Origin: a virus
Taxonomy: Duplodnaviria > Heunggongvirae > Uroviricota > Caudoviricetes
Length of the DNA: 36,638 bases
Strand: one strand, 5' to 3'
Virus record (IMG/VR): IMGVR_UViG_2541047702_000001
The position numbers and the translations under genes were made by a program. This document shows positions 4,707-36,487 of the stretch, in pieces; within the stretch, counting starts at the first letter, position 1, and every line of letters begins with the position of its first letter. The notes beneath the pieces were generated by a model that saw only the letters and a list, made by a program, of their open reading frames with translations, did not search any database and was not told the origin of the DNA.

Positions 4707-4721
4707 TTACCTTTCGGGTAA
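4707..4721. promoter_or_regulatory. Operator-like palindrome TTACC-TTTCG-GGTAA (exact)
   Basis: Exact match to the recurring motif; lies between divergent tailspike gene and the LexA-box promoter. Confidence 0.6.
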
Positions 4722-4760
4722 TTTGCAAAACGTGCTGGATAGCAAACAAATTATTTGATA

Positions 4761-4776
4761 CTGTATAAATATACAG
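4761..4776. promoter_or_regulatory. LexA (SOS) box CTGTATAAATATACAG overlapping a promoter for the plus-strand ORF 4798-5055
   Basis: Perfect CTGT-N8-ACAG with AT-rich spacer, flanked TA...TT (TACTGTATAAATATACAGTT); possible -35 TTGATA at 4755-4760; GGAGAAG ribosome-binding site at 4786-4792. Confidence 0.75.
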
Positions 4777-4797
4777 TTATTGCATGGAGAAGATAAG

Positions 4798-5055
4798 ATG
4801 CAGCAGTATCACTATCCACTGGAAGACGGATTTACCGAAAGGATTCACACGCCGGGAGGCGTCAGGTCACTGGTGGAGGGATCGCACTTGATGAAATTAC
4901 TCCGGGATCTCGATAAGGATGGATTTAATGTCGATGGCCCACTTGCCGAACTGACTGCACTGATTAACTATGTCACCAGCTCACAGATGTCTATGCAGGA
5001 TCTGCAAACACATCTCGACTATTGTGCCGAACAATTACGAAAACAAACCCGGTAA
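4798..5055 (+). CDS. Small LexA-regulated protein, candidate SOS-inducible antirepressor (function inferred from context only)
   Basis: 85 aa, ATG 4798 with ribosome-binding site; LexA box over its promoter; followed by a bidirectional terminator; opposite in orientation to all flanking genes. Confidence 0.5.
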   Translation: MQQYHYPLEDGFTERIHTPGGVRSLVEGSHLMKLLRDLDKDGFNVDGPLAELTALINYVTSSQMSMQDLQTHLDYCAEQLRKQTR

Positions 5056-5061
5056 ATTTAA

Positions 5062-5079
5062 AGGCCGCGAAAGCGGCCT
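5062..5079. terminator. Bidirectional intrinsic terminator hairpin AGGCCGC-GAAA-GCGGCCT between convergent genes
   Basis: 7-bp GC-rich stem; T-rich on the plus strand downstream (CCCTTTT) and on the minus strand (revcomp of 5041-5060 is T-rich). Confidence 0.6.
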
Positions 5080-5087
5080 GTGACATG

Positions 5088-5384
5088 TCACGTCCCTTTT
5101 CTGAATGATAGCCATTCGAAAAATGATGACATTCCACCGCAGACAATAGCAAAGATGATCCCACCAAAGAAGAGAAGGCCAGCCTGCCACCACTCCCACC
5201 GCCATACATCCACAGCGCCAACCATACCAACAATCGCTCCAACAAATGGAATATAGCTCACGATGAAAGCAATGGGGGCTGCAATTATCCAGTGCAATCC
5301 CCACCATGATTCAAGCCCAGCCATAATTGCTGCCAACTGAAAAAGACCAACGACGATATAAACAATGAATCCTATAGCTTGCAT
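5088..5384 (-). CDS. Small integral membrane protein (about 3 TM helices), function unknown; candidate superinfection-exclusion or host-surface-modification accessory protein
   Basis: 98 aa, strongly hydrophobic; AGGTGA ribosome-binding site before ATG 5384; last gene after the ejection-protein genes. Confidence 0.55.
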   Translation of the reverse strand: MQAIGFIVYIVVGLFQLAAIMAGLESWWGLHWIIAAPIAFIVSYIPFVGAIVGMVGAVDVWRWEWWQAGLLFFGGIIFAIVCGGMSSFFEWLSFRKGT

Positions 5385-5396
5385 GTAGTCACCTAT

Positions 5397-33636: not shown

Positions 33637-33685
33637 CCACCACCGCGGCGCCACGCGCGCCGCACTGCAACCAAGAGAGGTATTT

Positions 33686-33934
33686 ATGAAAGGTGCATTA
33701 GGTAAGAAGGAACTCCTGGCGGTGGTGCCACTGTCATGGAGCACTATCGACCGTATGGAGCGCGCAGGGGAATTTCCTAAACGCTGGTATATCACCGACA
33801 AACGCTGCGCATGGAACCGTGACGAAGTTGAGCGTTGGCTTGATGAACGTCAGGCAGCAAGCCCGGCAGAGTTCCAGGGTAAAAAACCTCCTGTTCAGCA
33901 ACGTGTATATCGTCCTGTGAGCAACGCTGCATGA
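33686..33934 (+). CDS. AlpA-family HTH protein (excisionase / transcriptional regulator)
   Basis: 82 aa; motif LSWSTIDRMERAGEFPKRWYITDKRCAWNRDEVERWL typical of AlpA/Xis-like proteins; AGAGAGG ribosome-binding site. Confidence 0.6.
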   Translation: MKGALGKKELLAVVPLSWSTIDRMERAGEFPKRWYITDKRCAWNRDEVERWLDERQAASPAEFQGKKPPVQQRVYRPVSNAA

Positions 33935-34043
33935 GTGTGCTGCTAAGACACTGGAGCAAATGGTCAGGATGGTACTTATTCCTGGCCTCTGTTTCAGCAT
34001 GGCTTTATCTGCTGGCATTAATTTTCAGAGAGGGTTGGATTAA

Positions 34044-34343
34044 GTGAGAAAGTTAAGCCGACTTGAAAAATATCACATGAATAAGGTTTCAATGCGCAGT
34101 CCGTCAAAGATTGTCGCCGTTACTCCTGCGGCGATAGAGATCGAAAAACGCGCGATTGAAAGAGAGAAAAAAGGGCAATTCCGAATTGCCGCCTACCTTT
34201 GGCTTCAGTGTATGGATGTTGCTTCTGGTGATGTTGAGCGTGCAAGGATCGCGGTTCGCAGGGACCAATGTATCACAAAAGGTAACGGCCTTCGCCGTGG
34301 CGACTATAGCGGCATAGGATGTTGTGGGGTGGTTTATGACTAA
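34044..34343 (+). CDS. PerC-family-like transcriptional activator (tentative)
   Basis: Segment FRIAAYLWLQCMDVASGDVERARIAVRRDQC resembles the PerC/Pch conserved core (recalled); start uncertain (GTG 34044, ATG 34077 or 34092). Confidence 0.4.
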   Translation: MRKLSRLEKYHMNKVSMRSPSKIVAVTPAAIEIEKRAIEREKKGQFRIAAYLWLQCMDVASGDVERARIAVRRDQCITKGNGLRRGDYSGIGCCGVVYD

Positions 34344-34986
34344 GAAATACACACTAATCTATGCAGATCCACCCTGGGTATACCGGGACAAAGCCGCAGA
34401 TGGTAATCGCGGTGCCGGTTTTAAATATCCGGTTATGAGTGTGCTGGATATCTGCCGCCTTCCTGTGTGGGATTTGGCCGATGAAAACTGTCTGTTGGCC
34501 ATGTGGTGGGTGCCAACACAACCACTCGAAGCACTAAAAGTTGTTGAAGCCTGGGGATTCCGTCTGATGACGATGAAGGGCTTCACGTGGATAAAATGTG
34601 GTAGTCGACAACCAGATAAACTTGTTATGGGTATGGGACACATGACTCGCGCCAATAGTGAAGATTGCCTGTTTGCGGTAAAGGGAAAACTACCTACGCG
34701 CATTAATGCAGGGATCGTTCAGTCATTTACCGCACCGCGGCTTGAGCATTCAAGAAAGCCAGATATCGTTCGTGAAAAACTTGTGCAATTATTAGGCGAT
34801 GTTTCTCGCATTGAACTGTTCGCCCGCCAGACGTCTCATGGCTTCGATGTTTGGGGTAATCAGTGCGAAGACCCGGCAGTGCAACTACACCCTGGATACG
34901 CGTTGGATATTGGCGGATTAACAAATGCATTCAGCAATGCTCCGCTGTCACCAACAGACAACCAGGGACGGGAGCGTGCTGCATGA
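34336..34986 (+). CDS. MT-A70-family DNA N6-adenine methyltransferase (orphan, no cognate endonuclease visible)
   Basis: ATG 34336; catalytic DPPW motif in LIYADPPWVY. Confidence 0.65.
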   Translation: MTKKYTLIYADPPWVYRDKAADGNRGAGFKYPVMSVLDICRLPVWDLADENCLLAMWWVPTQPLEALKVVEAWGFRLMTMKGFTWIKCGSRQPDKLVMGMGHMTRANSEDCLFAVKGKLPTRINAGIVQSFTAPRLEHSRKPDIVREKLVQLLGDVSRIELFARQTSHGFDVWGNQCEDPAVQLHPGYALDIGGLTNAFSNAPLSPTDNQGRERAA

Positions 34987-35177
34987 ACAGGGCATCACCA
35001 GCAGATTTAAGAAAATGCCTTGAAACTGCAAACATGCTTGCACACAGCGGGATCAGGTTTGTTCCAATTCCCGCTGTCACTGATGCTGAATTTGCAACAC
35101 TGTCAGCAATATTCGAAAACAAAATTGAATCACTGGCAGCAGAAGCAGAGATGGAAGAAAATCAGCAGAACTATTAA
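34983..35177 (+). CDS. Hypothetical small protein
   Basis: ATG 34983 overlapping MTase stop (ATGA); 64 aa. Confidence 0.35.
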   Translation: MNRASPADLRKCLETANMLAHSGIRFVPIPAVTDAEFATLSAIFENKIESLAAEAEMEENQQNY

Positions 35178-35180
35178 ACG

Positions 35181-36431
35181 TTATTCCCCCGCCATCCACT
35201 TCTCAAACTTCGACGGGGAGAACGGAATCAGATCCGTATGCTCCCCGTCAATCCATGAATCAATCATATCGGCCCACTGCTGCAACATGTAGGCGCGCTG
35301 TCTGGCGTATTCCGCTTTGTTATATACGGCGCGCACACCTTTCTGCTCATGTGCCAGAGCCTTTTCAATCCAGTCTGAAGGATAACCAGCCTCATGCAAC
35401 AACGTACTGGCTGTACGGCGCATATCATGTACAGTGAAGTCCTGAATATGCTCACCATCTTCATTTATTATTTTCACCGTTCTGTCGATCAGAGAGTTTA
35501 GCGCGGCATTAGATAATGGCTTCCGGAAATTGTAACGACCAGGAACCAGATATTCACTTCCACCAGCGCACATCTGCAACCCGACCAATATATCCTGTGC
35601 CTGTTTAGGCAGGTAAATAACGTGCGCCCGGCTTCCCTTCATGCGGTCTGGAGGAATTGTCCATGTCCATTTTTTAAAATCTATTTCATCCCACGTTGCA
35701 TTGGTGAATTCGCCCTTACGAACCATAGTGATAAGCACCAGTTTTAAAGCCATTTTCATAGTGCCCATAGCACCAATGGCATCCAGCGTGCGGAAGAACA
35801 GGCCAATTTCTTCTGGTGTCAGTGTTCGCTCTCGTGGTTTAAATATGGCGATAGACGAAGGTTTAATGTCAGCCGCAGGATTAAACAAACCATGACCACG
35901 GTCATTGGCGTGACGGTATACGCTACTGATGATCTCCCTGGCCTGCACTGCTGTTGCCCGGCCACCGCGTTCGACAATCCGGTCACACAAATCACGAACC
36001 ATCGATGTGGTAATTTCAGCCATCATTTTATTGCCAAGAGTCGGAAGTATGTCACGGTCGATCACCGCCTGTTTCATTGCGCGGGTACTGTCAGCCAGGA
36101 TGACGTGTTTCATATAACTGTCGGTATGTACCGCAAACGTCTCGGCACCACGAATCTTTTTGATACCGTCACGTTTAGCCGCAGCCGGTGACTGGCCTGC
36201 TTTAAGCAGCTTCTTTGCAGCAATCAGTTCTTCTCGCGCTTCTGCCAGGCTGATACCGTCACGCCCATACTGCCCGATTACCAGTGTTTCGCGGCGACCG
36301 TTGATACGGTAGTCATAGCGAAACGAGACCGTACCTGACGTAAGCACAGCTACATACAGCCCGTCACGATCGGAAACTTTGTACAGTTTGTCCTGTGGCT
36401 TGAGGTTCTTTAATTTTGTATCGGTAAGCAC
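35181..36431 (-). CDS. int: Tyrosine integrase, P4-type (N-terminal DUF4102-like arm-binding domain plus catalytic domain)
   Basis: GTG start at 36431 with GGGTGA upstream; N-terminus LTDTKLKNLKPQDKLYKVSD; catalytic H-x-x-R (HDMRRTAST) and C-terminal tyrosine region VRAVYNKAEY; adjacent to attR. Confidence 0.85.
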   Translation of the reverse strand: MLTDTKLKNLKPQDKLYKVSDRDGLYVAVLTSGTVSFRYDYRINGRRETLVIGQYGRDGISLAEAREELIAAKKLLKAGQSPAAAKRDGIKKIRGAETFAVHTDSYMKHVILADSTRAMKQAVIDRDILPTLGNKMMAEITTSMVRDLCDRIVERGGRATAVQAREIISSVYRHANDRGHGLFNPAADIKPSSIAIFKPRERTLTPEEIGLFFRTLDAIGAMGTMKMALKLVLITMVRKGEFTNATWDEIDFKKWTWTIPPDRMKGSRAHVIYLPKQAQDILVGLQMCAGGSEYLVPGRYNFRKPLSNAALNSLIDRTVKIINEDGEHIQDFTVHDMRRTASTLLHEAGYPSDWIEKALAHEQKGVRAVYNKAEYARQRAYMLQQWADMIDSWIDGEHTDLIPFSPSKFEKWMAGE

Positions 36432-36472
36432 AATTCACCCGTATAGAAACCATTTTCATGACGGTATGAGAG

Positions 36473-36487
36473 TATACCTTTAAGGTA
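36473..36487. promoter_or_regulatory. Operator-like site ATACC-TTTAA-GGTAA (1 mismatch) about 40 bp upstream of the integrase start
   Basis: Read in sequence. Confidence 0.4.

What the first reader, a model, noticed from the sequence alone, without database searches (positions are those of the whole stretch)
4707..36487. Genome-wide dispersed palindromic operator motif TTACC-N5-GGTAA at every operon boundary
Eight exact copies (starts 4707, 21638, 24810, 28309, 28371, 30677, 31390, 31452) and five 1-2 mismatch variants (24792, 30293, 30629, 30660, 36473), all intergenic or at gene starts; I saw none inside coding sequence. With 10 fixed positions, roughly 0.03 exact copies are expected by chance in 36.6 kb (back-of-envelope, equal base frequencies). 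Beyond the expected OR-like and OL-like clusters flanking the repressor gene, copies sit in front of the tailspike unit, the portal operon/tRNA unit, terS, the nuclease gene, the CII-position gene and integrase. This implies one DNA-binding protein, most plausibly the tandem-HTH repressor, directly gating early, late, moron and integrase transcription units, which is not the lambda layout.
Basis: seen in the sequence. Interest (0 to 1): 0.8.

Follow-up and report, generated by a model that had tools for sequence, protein, structure and literature searches.

The report
Known repressor operators across a prophage
The repeated TTACC-N5-GGTAA palindrome is real and non-random, but it is the binding site already annotated for the main repressor of epsilon15/phiV10-type phages, so this complete E. 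coli prophage is another example of a known layout.

Summary
There are 8 exact copies, 4 one-mismatch copies and one two-mismatch copy of TTACC-N5-GGTAA. All 13 lie outside coding sequence in a window that is 93% coding. Chance predicts about 0.02-0.04 exact copies, and 100 kb of E. coli K-12 DNA has none.

The window is a complete phiV10-like (Uetakevirus) prophage bounded by its 17-bp att repeat. Its repressor and a small divergent ORF next to site 4707 are homologues of the Rep and Ant proteins of Salmonella phage SPC32H (PDB 5D50). Ant carries a perfect LexA box.

The same motif sits at the same distances from the same genes in seven phages of four host genera and in six further enterobacterial prophages. 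The arms are invariant and the spacer varies freely. The epsilon15 RefSeq record already labels these sites "protein_bind: repressor" at terS, the portal operon, the tail fibre, the PL side and the nuclease gene.

Direct binding at the late sites is still only inferred. "Every operon boundary" is too strong: the lysis cassette and the morons here have no site.

Possibly new details are operator pairs exactly 62 bp apart that bracket two promoters, and a conserved half-site at +62 in the portal promoter. Verdict: already known, low interest.

The parts
30748..31332 (+). Rep, the prophage repressor. It has an N-terminal DNA-binding domain, a middle HTH_3-like domain and a C-terminal tetramerisation region.
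   Evidence: phmmer hit to PDB 5D50_A, SPC32H Repressor, E 4e-42 over residues 1-190. Pfam HTH_3 at residues 106-147. It is 100% identical to the phiV10 and vB_EcoP_ZX5 repressors.
30678..30692 (.). OR-side operator, exact copy, 55 nt upstream of the rep start codon
30661..30675 (.). OR-side operator with 2 mismatches (TTACCTATGGGGTGC), 17 bp from the previous one. The orthologous site is an exact copy in epsilon15, SPC32H and BUCT711.
30630..30644 (.). OR-side operator inside the PR core promoter. The TCACC arm variant is conserved in nearly all relatives.
30619..30654 (-). PR promoter region for the Cro-like gene. The -35 TTGATT (30654-30649) is conserved in 7 of 7 genomes. Alternative elements are -35 TTGTTA with -10 TATTAT (30647-30619).
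   Evidence: Promoter assignment is inferred from consensus and conservation.
30363..30593 (-). p41, a Cro-position small HTH protein and possible second binder of the same operators
   Evidence: phrog_35 transcriptional repressor, E 5.6e-13. HTH segment AGTTSHYIQTHLT is invariant in 6 genomes.
31390..31404 (.). PL distal operator, exact copy, 17 nt after the rep terminator (31353-31372)
31424..31452 (+). PL promoter: TTGACA, 17-nt spacer, AATTAT
   Evidence: The CTATTGAC block is conserved in 7 of 7 genomes.
31452..31466 (.). PL proximal operator, exact copy. It overlaps the last base of the -10 and the start-site region, and lies 62 bp from the distal operator.
28371..28385 (.). Distal operator of the DUF1064 unit, exact copy, just after the terminator that follows the P-like replication gene
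28323..28351 (-). Promoter of the DUF1064 unit: TTGATT, 17-nt spacer, TTTAAT
   Evidence: Read from the sequence and conserved in 7 genomes even where the downstream gene is a RuvC-like resolvase instead.
28309..28323 (.). Proximal operator of the DUF1064 unit, exact copy, 62 bp from the distal one. It overlaps the -10, and its spacer holds the Shine-Dalgarno sequence; the ATG is at 28305.
30293..30307 (.). One-mismatch operator (GTACC arm) 15 nt after the terminator that follows p41 and upstream of p42. It is the least conserved class.
24810..24824 (.). terS operator, exact copy, 19 nt after terminator 24861-24844
24792..24806 (.). terS operator with 1 mismatch, 18 bp from the previous one and 2 nt before the ATG at 24789
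21649..21663 (.). Operator 90 nt upstream of gp3, the first gene of the portal/virion operon. This distance is 90-91 nt in six of the seven genomes; for Tyrion the 90 nt is inferred from the ungapped alignment.
21587..21601 (-). Half-operator TGGTTAAATTGGTAA exactly 62 bp downstream of the portal operator, identical in 7 of 7 genomes. It overlaps the conserved block CATATGTGGTT...GGTAATAAT.
4707..4721 (.). Operator in the divergent ant/tailspike intergenic region, 58 nt (to the maximal ant ORF) and 104 nt from the two genes in this window; the distances are the same or nearly so in the six relatives
4657..4671 (-). Half-operator TGGTTTTTAAGGTAA in the putative tailspike promoter, 50 bp from the operator
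4798..5055 (+). Ant, the antirepressor
   Evidence: PDB 5D50_E Anti-repressor protein, E 5.4e-47. It occupies the same position as the SPC32H ant gene.
4761..4776 (.). LexA (SOS) box CTGTATAAATATACAG in front of ant
   Evidence: Conserved in the relatives.
36474..36488 (.). One-mismatch operator 42 nt upstream of the integrase GTG. The GGTAT arm is identical in 7 of 7 genomes while the spacer varies. It sits inside a longer inverted repeat, TGACGGTA (36496-36489) and TACCGTCA (36466-36459).

Best explanation
The 13 sites are the operators of the prophage's main repressor Rep (30748-31332). Rep is a homologue of the tetrameric Rep of Salmonella phage SPC32H.

Each 15-bp site has two 5-bp arms whose centres are 10 bp apart, which fits a pair of N-terminal helix-turn-helix domains.

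At PL and at the DUF1064 unit, two operators exactly 62 bp apart bracket a sigma-70 promoter, and the proximal one overlaps the -10 and the start site. At PR, one operator lies inside the core promoter and two more lie upstream towards rep. These arrangements point to classical occlusion, probably stabilised by one tetramer holding two sites.

Further sites follow terminators at the heads of the terS, portal, tailspike/ant, p42 and int units. In the lysogen, one protein would therefore silence early, replication, packaging, virion and integration units in parallel.

Induction is expected to follow the SPC32H route. DNA damage removes LexA from the box in front of ant, and Ant then takes Rep off all operators together.

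Shown here: the sites, their statistics, their conservation, and the Rep, Ant and LexA-box homologies. Inferred: binding of Rep to each site, repression at the late sites, and tetramer bridging.
For: - Statistics: 8 exact sites against 0.02 expected, and 12 of 12 sites with at most 1 mismatch are non-coding in a 93% coding genome.
- Host control: absent from 100 kb of host DNA.
- Proteins: Rep matches PDB 5D50_A and Ant matches 5D50_E. A LexA box precedes ant.
- Prior annotation: the epsilon15 RefSeq record marks the same motif as repressor-binding at terS, gp3, the tail fibre, the PL side and gp43.
- Conservation: sites are orthologous, at identical or near-identical distances from start codons, in 7 phages from Escherichia, Salmonella, Enterobacter and Klebsiella. 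Six further enterobacterial prophages show the same OR, PL and DUF1064 pattern.
- Site anatomy: over 92 sites the ACC/GGT core is 98-100% conserved and the spacer carries almost no information.
- Flanks: sequence upstream of the portal and lysis-cassette sites is unrelated between phages, and conservation starts at the operator.
- Binder: the Rep N-terminal domain is better conserved than the rest (54-90% against 35-72%), and NLVNRW is invariant. Five distant homologues with other recognition helices lack the motif.
- Spacing: the 62-bp pairs are conserved in 7 of 7 genomes at the DUF1064/RuvC unit and in 6 of 7 at PL, where BUCT711 has 63 bp.
- Experiment in a relative: overexpressing the 100%-identical ZX5 repressor abolished free phage and cut holin and endolysin mRNA by more than 99.9% (PMC9782041).
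- Literature: Rep is reported to bind palindromic sites as a tetramer (PMC9638917).
Against: - No binding data for these sites could be read. The primary papers (Kropinski 2007; Kim & Ryu 2013; Kim et al. 2016) are not held.
- The late-unit sites lie about 65-85 bp upstream of the likely -10 elements, too far for simple occlusion.
- No convincing sigma-70 promoter is visible between the terS operators and the upstream terminator.
- The Cro-like p41 has an equally invariant HTH and could bind the same DNA.
- The helix-versus-motif comparison is confounded by phylogeny, because all motif-bearing elements belong to one phage lineage.
- The lysis cassette of this window lacks a site, yet it must still be silent in the lysogen.
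Confidence: 0.75

Rival explanations
1. The Cro-position protein p41 (30363-30593) is the relevant binder at some or all sites, alone or in competition with Rep as in lambda. The dispersed sites would then tune expression during lytic growth rather than only in the lysogen.
For: p41 matches a phage transcriptional-repressor family (phrog_35). Its HTH segment AGTTSHYIQTHLT is invariant across six genomes that share the motif. It is transcribed from the operator-bearing PR.
Against: No data show DNA binding by p41. The epsilon15 annotators assigned the sites to the repressor. This rival does not exclude the main explanation.
Confidence: 0.35
2. Some sites, chiefly the terS pair and the p42 site, act as elongation roadblocks rather than promoter operators. 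They would back up the terminators just upstream, in the manner of mycobacteriophage stoperators.
For: These sites lie 15-19 nt downstream of intrinsic terminators and immediately before the ribosome-binding site. No recognisable sigma-70 promoter lies between them and the terminator. Repressors that stop elongation at dispersed sites are known in cluster A mycobacteriophages (PMC9283540).
Against: The sites are palindromic, so they show none of the orientation dependence typical of stoperators. At PL, PR and the DUF1064 unit they clearly overlap promoters.
Confidence: 0.2
3. The late-unit copies are inert leftovers of a terminator-operator-promoter cassette spread by recombination. Only the PR and PL operator clusters would be functional.
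For: The PL and DUF1064 modules look like copies of one cassette: O, about 20 nt, CTATTGA, 17 nt, -10, O. Fragments such as CATATCTATTC recur at p42.
Against: The arms stay intact while spacers and flanks diverge, at fixed or near-fixed distances from start codons, in phages whose Rep proteins are only 42-45% identical. Even the imperfect arms (GGTAT at int, TCACC at the PR-proximal operator) are conserved.
Confidence: 0.07
4. The palindromes act as RNA hairpins, for example processing or stability signals, and not as DNA-binding sites.
For: epsilon15 annotates an RNase III site overlapping the int copy. The int copy lies within a longer inverted repeat.
Against: The hairpins are weak, -3.3 to -5.2 kcal/mol. 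The arms are conserved as sequence, with no compensatory changes in 92 sites. The distal operators at PL and DUF1064 lie upstream of the predicted promoters and so would probably not be transcribed.
Confidence: 0.03

Closest known systems
Repressor-binding sites of Salmonella phage epsilon15 (RefSeq NC_004775.2 'protein_bind: repressor'), together with the Rep/Ant switch of SPC32H (PDB 5D50, 5D4Z)
   Same: The motif is the same TTACC-N5-GGTAA and sits at the same gene positions: terS, gp3/portal, ant/tail fibre, the PL side and the nuclease-position unit. Rep and Ant are homologous, ant carries a LexA box, and the genus is the same.
   Different: This is a phiV10-type E. coli prophage whose public relatives carry no operator annotation. 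Its Rep is only 42% identical to epsilon15 Rep. It has lost the lysis-cassette site. PL has two operators here and three in epsilon15 and SPC32H.
Lambda CI/Cro with OR and OL
   Same: Divergent repressor and cro-like genes are separated by three palindromic operators that overlap PR. A second cluster lies at PL. The palindromic sites suit HTH dimers.
   Different: Operators are not confined to the immunity region. Rep has no S24 peptidase or autocleavage domain in Pfam. Induction is expected through a LexA-controlled antirepressor. Rep is reported to be a tetramer.
Phage P1 C1 repressor with operators dispersed over the genome
   Same: One repressor has many operators scattered across the genome and is inactivated by a small antirepressor-type protein. 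P1 has 22 C1 operators and the Coi protein (PMC8546580).
   Different: P1 operators are asymmetric 17-mers. From general knowledge, C1 is unrelated to Rep and P1 is a plasmid prophage; neither point was tested here.
Cluster A mycobacteriophage (L5-type) repressor with operators and stoperators
   Same: More than twenty repressor sites are spread through the genome, many of them in short intergenic gaps (PMC9283540).
   Different: L5 sites are asymmetric 13-mers bound by a monomer, and they are orientation-dependent for blocking elongation. The sites here are symmetric, fewer, and mostly tied to promoters.

Membership tests
Uetakevirus (epsilon15/phiV10/SPC32H) Rep-Ant immunity system | Full-length homologue of SPC32H Rep | tested here: met
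   5D50_A, E 4e-42, residues 1-190 aligned to 2-197
Uetakevirus (epsilon15/phiV10/SPC32H) Rep-Ant immunity system | Homologue of the small antirepressor Ant, placed between the virion operon and the tailspike gene | tested here: met
   5D50_E, E 5.4e-47. Same position as the SPC32H ant gene.
Uetakevirus (epsilon15/phiV10/SPC32H) Rep-Ant immunity system | SOS (LexA) box in front of ant. LexA control of ant in SPC32H is recalled from Kim & Ryu 2013, which I could not read. | tested here: met
   CTGTATAAATATACAG at 4761-4776, conserved in the relatives. LexA binding itself was not tested.
Uetakevirus (epsilon15/phiV10/SPC32H) Rep-Ant immunity system | Operator motif and positions equal to the sites annotated as repressor-binding in epsilon15 | tested here: met
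Uetakevirus (epsilon15/phiV10/SPC32H) Rep-Ant immunity system | Physical binding of Rep to each site and repression of the adjacent unit | not testable with these tools
   Only indirect evidence: overexpression of the identical ZX5 repressor shuts down lysis-gene mRNA.
Lambda-type CI repressor switch | Three operators between divergent repressor and cro genes, overlapping PR | tested here: met
   Sites 30630, 30661 and 30678 lie between p41 and rep.
Lambda-type CI repressor switch | RecA-stimulated self-cleavage domain (Peptidase S24) in the repressor | tested here: not met
   Pfam finds only HTH families in Rep. The C-terminal part aligns to the SPC32H dimerisation and tetramerisation region.
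Lambda-type CI repressor switch | Operators confined to the immunity region | tested here: not met
   Eight of the 13 sites lie at the terS, portal, tailspike/ant, DUF1064, p42 and int units.
P1 C1-type dispersed operator regulon | Many operators of one repressor dispersed over the genome | tested here: met
   13 sites in 8 regions across 32 kb
P1 C1-type dispersed operator regulon | Asymmetric 17-bp operator (ATTGCTCTAATAAATTT) and a C1-family repressor | tested here: not met
   The sites here are palindromic with a different sequence. Rep matches HTH_3 and 5D50, not C1. This is an analogue only.
Mycobacteriophage stoperators | Asymmetric sites whose orientation follows the direction of transcription | tested here: not met
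   The sites are symmetric.

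The most novel reading that the evidence does not exclude
Rep tetramers may close short loops around whole promoters, using operator pairs held at a fixed 62-bp phase at PL and the DUF1064/RuvC unit. At the portal promoter the pair would be a full site plus a conserved half-site at +62. One Ant-sensitive protein would then directly lock every lytic unit, including virion and int genes. 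That would be a flat, P1-like programme inside a lambda-like gene order. Late timing would come from a separate factor acting on the conserved CATATGTGGTT block. I could not check whether the 62-bp phasing and the half-sites have been described, because the primary papers are not held.
Probability: 0.3. Interest if true: 0.45.

Novelty: already known. Interest (0 to 1): 0.22.

Why it matters
The result mainly serves as a correct annotation. It identifies the window as a complete Uetakevirus prophage with a Rep/Ant/LexA switch, and it transfers to phiV10-type E. coli phages an operator map that so far exists only in the epsilon15 record. phiV10-type phages are used as O157 reporter phages.

The comparative data also give testable details about how a tetrameric repressor is deployed:
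- promoter-bracketing operator pairs 62 bp apart;
- imperfect arms that are themselves conserved;
- half-sites inside the late promoters.

The general idea that one repressor has sites across a phage genome is established for epsilon15, P1 and L5-type phages.

Tried and rejected
- **Primary papers:** I tried to read Kropinski et al. 2007 (epsilon15 genome), Kim & Ryu 2013 and Kim et al. 2016 (SPC32H Rep/Ant). None is held. What they tested at these sites is therefore known to me only through secondary papers and the GenBank annotation.
- **Literature searches:** searches for operator descriptions in Uetakevirus papers found nothing specific.
- **RNA hairpin reading:** rejected. The stems are weak and show no covariation.
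- **Host-factor site:** rejected, because the motif is absent from 100 kb of K-12 DNA.
- **Covariation test with distant Rep-domain homologues:** Paraburkholderia, Hydrogenovibrio and Thiomicrospira homologues have different recognition helices and no motif. I found no replacement palindrome, so the test is only weakly informative.
- **Sigma-70 consensus scan:** it supports promoters at PL and PR only. It gives nothing convincing at the terS, portal, tailspike or int sites.
- **ATRTGGTT motif:** its count (4) is not above chance (2.8 expected). Only the placement of the hits is non-random.
- **Reading the portal site as the operator of a divergent promoter towards the tRNA:** a conserved TTGACA sits on the opposite strand, but it lies 16 nt from the operator and no acceptable -10 follows. 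I dropped this reading.

Full report
**1. Observation**

A scan of both strands finds exact TTACCNNNNNGGTAA at 4707, 21649, 24810, 28309, 28371, 30678, 31390 and 31452. That is 8 sites against 0.02 expected from dinucleotide-preserving shuffles. Allowing one mismatch adds 24792, 30293, 30630 and 36474, giving 12 sites against 0.62 expected. A two-mismatch copy at 30661 lies between two of the operators next to rep.

Using a gene map transferred from phiV10, epsilon15 and SPC32H, the window is 93.1% coding. Even so, all 12 sites with at most one mismatch are non-coding (P about 1e-14). The two- and three-mismatch classes otherwise behave like background: 22 coding and 1 non-coding against 14.5 expected, and 151 against 115 expected.

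One caveat applies. The two terS sites are outside the gene only if terS starts at ATG 24789. The epsilon15, SPC32H and Tyrion records use that start. The phiV10 record uses an upstream TTG that would also swallow a terminator.

Two 50-kb pieces of E. coli K-12 contain no exact copy and a single one-mismatch copy, which is inside a gene.

**2. What the window is**

The window is 97-98% identical, over the tested immunity region (27800-32000), to phiV10, BP9, PAS61 and other Uetakevirus phages. It is colinear with phiV10 in reverse orientation, apart from replaced modules.

Bases 1-17 and 36622-36638 are the same 17-mer, ATTGAGTGGGAATGATT. This is the att core reported for vB_EcoP_ZX5 (PMC9782041). 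The window is therefore one complete integrated prophage.

From PR (about 30.6 kb) down to the lysis genes (0.1 kb), nearly all genes are on the minus strand. They form units separated by intrinsic terminators.

**3. The proteins**

- **Rep.** The product of 30748-31332 aligns over its whole length with the SPC32H repressor (PDB 5D50_A, E 4e-42). It is 100% identical to the phiV10 and ZX5 repressors.
- **Rep domains.** A secondary source describes SPC32H Rep as having an N-terminal DNA-binding domain, a middle dimerisation domain and a C-terminal tetramerisation domain that also binds Ant (PMC9986798). Another source states that it binds palindromic sites as a tetramer (PMC9638917).
- **Ant.** The small ORF at 4798-5055, divergent from the tailspike gene, is the antirepressor Ant (5D50_E, E 5.4e-47).
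- **LexA box.** A perfect LexA box, CTGTATAAATATACAG, precedes ant at 4761-4776 and is conserved in the relatives.
- **Cro-like p41.** The gene at 30363-30593 matches a phage repressor family.

**4. Prior knowledge**

The epsilon15 RefSeq record carries seven features labelled "protein_bind, repressor, lysogeny". They lie before terS, before gp3, between gp19 (the ant homologue) and the tail fibre gene, three on the PL side, and one before gp43. These are the same TTACC-N5-GGTAA motif. epsilon15 has 11 exact and 4 one-mismatch copies, and phiV10 has 8 and 6. The dispersed repressor regulon was thus already inferred for this phage group. The phiV10-type records do not annotate it.

**5. Comparative test**

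I compared seven genomes: the window, phiV10, Tyrion, BUCT554, epsilon15, SPC32H and BUCT711. Their hosts are Escherichia, Enterobacter, Salmonella and Klebsiella. The motif takes orthologous places at the same or nearly the same distances from start codons in most or all of them.

| Unit | Position of the site(s) |
|---|---|
| terS | 2 and 20 nt before the start (2 and 22 in BUCT554; SPC32H has only the 20-nt copy; no site found in BUCT711) |
| gp3 (portal operon) | 90-91 nt before the start |
| ant / tailspike | 58 nt before ant (80 in BUCT711) and 98-106 nt before the tailspike gene |
| lysis cassette | 96-105 nt before the start |
| int | 41-42 nt before the start |
| DUF1064-position unit | 3-5 and 65-67 nt before the start |
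| PL and PR | clusters on either side of rep |

Six more enterobacterial prophages (Superficieibacter, Erwinia, Klebsiella, Citrobacter, Scandinavium) repeat the pattern around rep.

Over 92 sites the ACC/GGT core is 98-100% conserved and the outer TT/AA about 91-93%. A weak A/T preference flanks the arms, and the five spacer bases carry almost no information. Imperfect arms are conserved as such: GGTAT at int in 7 of 7 genomes, and TCACC at the PR-proximal site and at most lysis sites.

Upstream of the portal and lysis-cassette sites the phages share no sequence, and conservation begins at the operator. This is the footprint of selection on a protein-binding site. It is not the pattern of an RNA stem: there are no compensatory changes, and the stems are only -3.3 to -5.2 kcal/mol.

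Across six of these genomes, the Rep N-terminal 70 residues are 54-90% identical and the rest 35-72%. The segment NLVNRW is invariant. Five distant homologues with other helices lack the motif. That comparison is weak, because it is confounded by phylogeny.

**6. Anatomy and likely mechanism**

- **PL.** The order is terminator 31353-31372, operator 31390-31404, -35 TTGACA at 31424, -10 AATTAT ending at 31452, then operator 31452-31466, with the ATG at 31486.
- **DUF1064 unit.** The design is the same on the minus strand: terminator, operator 28385-28371, TTGATT, a 17-nt spacer, TTTAAT, then operator 28323-28309, with the ATG at 28305.
- **62-bp spacing.** In both cases the proximal operator shares a base with the -10 hexamer, and the two operators are exactly 62 bp apart. 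The spacing is 62 bp in 7 of 7 genomes at the DUF1064 position, even where the downstream gene is a RuvC-like resolvase. At PL it is 62 bp in six genomes and 63 bp in BUCT711. Sixty-two base pairs is close to six helical turns, which fits one tetramer holding both sites around the promoter. That is my inference.
- **PR.** A conserved TTGATT is followed by an operator within the spacer and -10 region. Two more operators lie 17 and 48 bp further towards rep.
- **terS.** Two operators 18 bp apart fill the gap between a terminator and the ATG, and no clear promoter is visible.
- **Portal and tailspike/ant.** The single operators lie about 65-85 bp upstream of the likely -10. Each is followed by a conserved block, CATATGTGGTT-N5-GGTAAT. 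In the portal class this block forms the half-site TGGTTAAATTGGTAA at exactly +62 in 7 of 7 genomes.
- **int.** The copy lies 42 nt before the GTG start, inside a longer inverted repeat.

The most economical reading is parallel repression of all these units by Rep. Release would come from Ant after LexA inactivation, as described for SPC32H.

Experiments with the identical ZX5 protein agree in outline. Overexpression removed free phage and lowered holin and endolysin mRNA by more than 99.9%. Those experiments do not show direct action.

**7.

The motif is not at every unit boundary. In this prophage the segment from about 1990 to 4480, and also 5056-5576, are not homologous to phiV10. The site that five relatives carry about 100 nt before the lysis cassette is missing here, although the promoter-like block downstream of it is kept. 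The tRNA-Arg/p03/p04 region and ORFs 5088-5384 and 2120-2416 have no site. The p42 site is the least conserved and has decayed in BUCT554.

**8. Comparison and verdict**

In membership terms this is the Rep/Ant immunity system of Uetakevirus phages. Every sequence-level feature that I could test is met, and only physical binding remains untested.

In working principle it resembles other repressors with genome-wide sites. P1 C1 has 22 dispersed asymmetric operators (PMC8546580). L5-type repressors have more than 20 asymmetric sites, including stoperators (PMC9283540). The system here differs from both in having symmetric sites and a tetrameric repressor removed by an antirepressor.

It differs from lambda in three ways. 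Rep lacks an autocleavage domain, the operators reach beyond the immunity region, and induction is expected to run through an antirepressor.

The finding is real, correctly read in its core, and already known. The 62-bp phasing, the conserved half-sites and the CATATGTGGTT block are details I could not find described. I also could not check them against the primary literature.

Noticed in passing
window 4761-5055: A LexA-box-controlled antirepressor gene lies divergent from the tailspike gene. ant runs 4798-5055 and matches PDB 5D50_E at E 5e-47. Its perfect SOS box is at 4761-4776. The phiV10 record annotates its homologue (PhiV10p24) only as a hypothetical protein, and the separate Bro-N 'anti-immunity' gene of phiV10 is absent from this window.
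   Followed up: yes
window 4667-4674, 21597-21604, 28329-28336, 30274-30281 (all minus strand): A second motif, ATGTGGTT, is part of a conserved block CATATGTGGTT-N5-GGTAAT. All four copies in the window are intergenic, on the transcribed strand and just downstream of an operator. A related ATATGGTT block precedes the lysis cassette in relatives. It could be a late-promoter element or an activator site. The raw count is not above chance, but the placement is non-random.
   Followed up: partly
window 24787-24870: The terS start is probably ATG 24789, as annotated in epsilon15, SPC32H and Tyrion. The TTG-start equivalent used in the phiV10 record would put terminator 24861-24844 and both operators inside the gene.
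   Followed up: partly
window 24903-24914: A perfect 12-bp palindrome, GTGACATGTCAC, overlaps the stop codon of the p55 regulator gene. The ends of the linear phiV10 record fall inside it, and the Tyrion record starts at a TGTCAC that matches its right half. It may relate to packaging (pac/cos) or to a promoter, since a GTGACA-18-CATGAT match is present.
   Followed up: no
window 1-17 and 36622-36638: Identical 17-bp att core ATTGAGTGGGAATGATT at both ends, so the window is exactly one integrated prophage. The core equals the attP/attB core reported for vB_EcoP_ZX5 at the 3' end of guaA.
   Followed up: yes
window 1990-4480 and 5056-5576: Modules are swapped relative to phiV10. The tailspike body is different and no O-acetyltransferase gene is present. 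Two small ORFs of unknown function appear instead: 2120-2416 (phrog_1443) and 5088-5384 (phrog_3075). The swap removed the operator that relatives carry before the lysis cassette.
   Followed up: partly
window 21984-22060 (+): tRNA-Arg (anticodon TCT) lies on the strand opposite the virion genes. It overlaps the ORF homologous to phiV10p04 (21990-22241, minus strand), which may therefore be a spurious gene call.
   Followed up: no
window 36459-36496: The int operator lies within a longer inverted repeat, TGACGGTA...TACCGTCA. epsilon15 annotates RNase III and integrase-binding features in this region, so the site may have overlapping roles in int expression or attP function.
   Followed up: no
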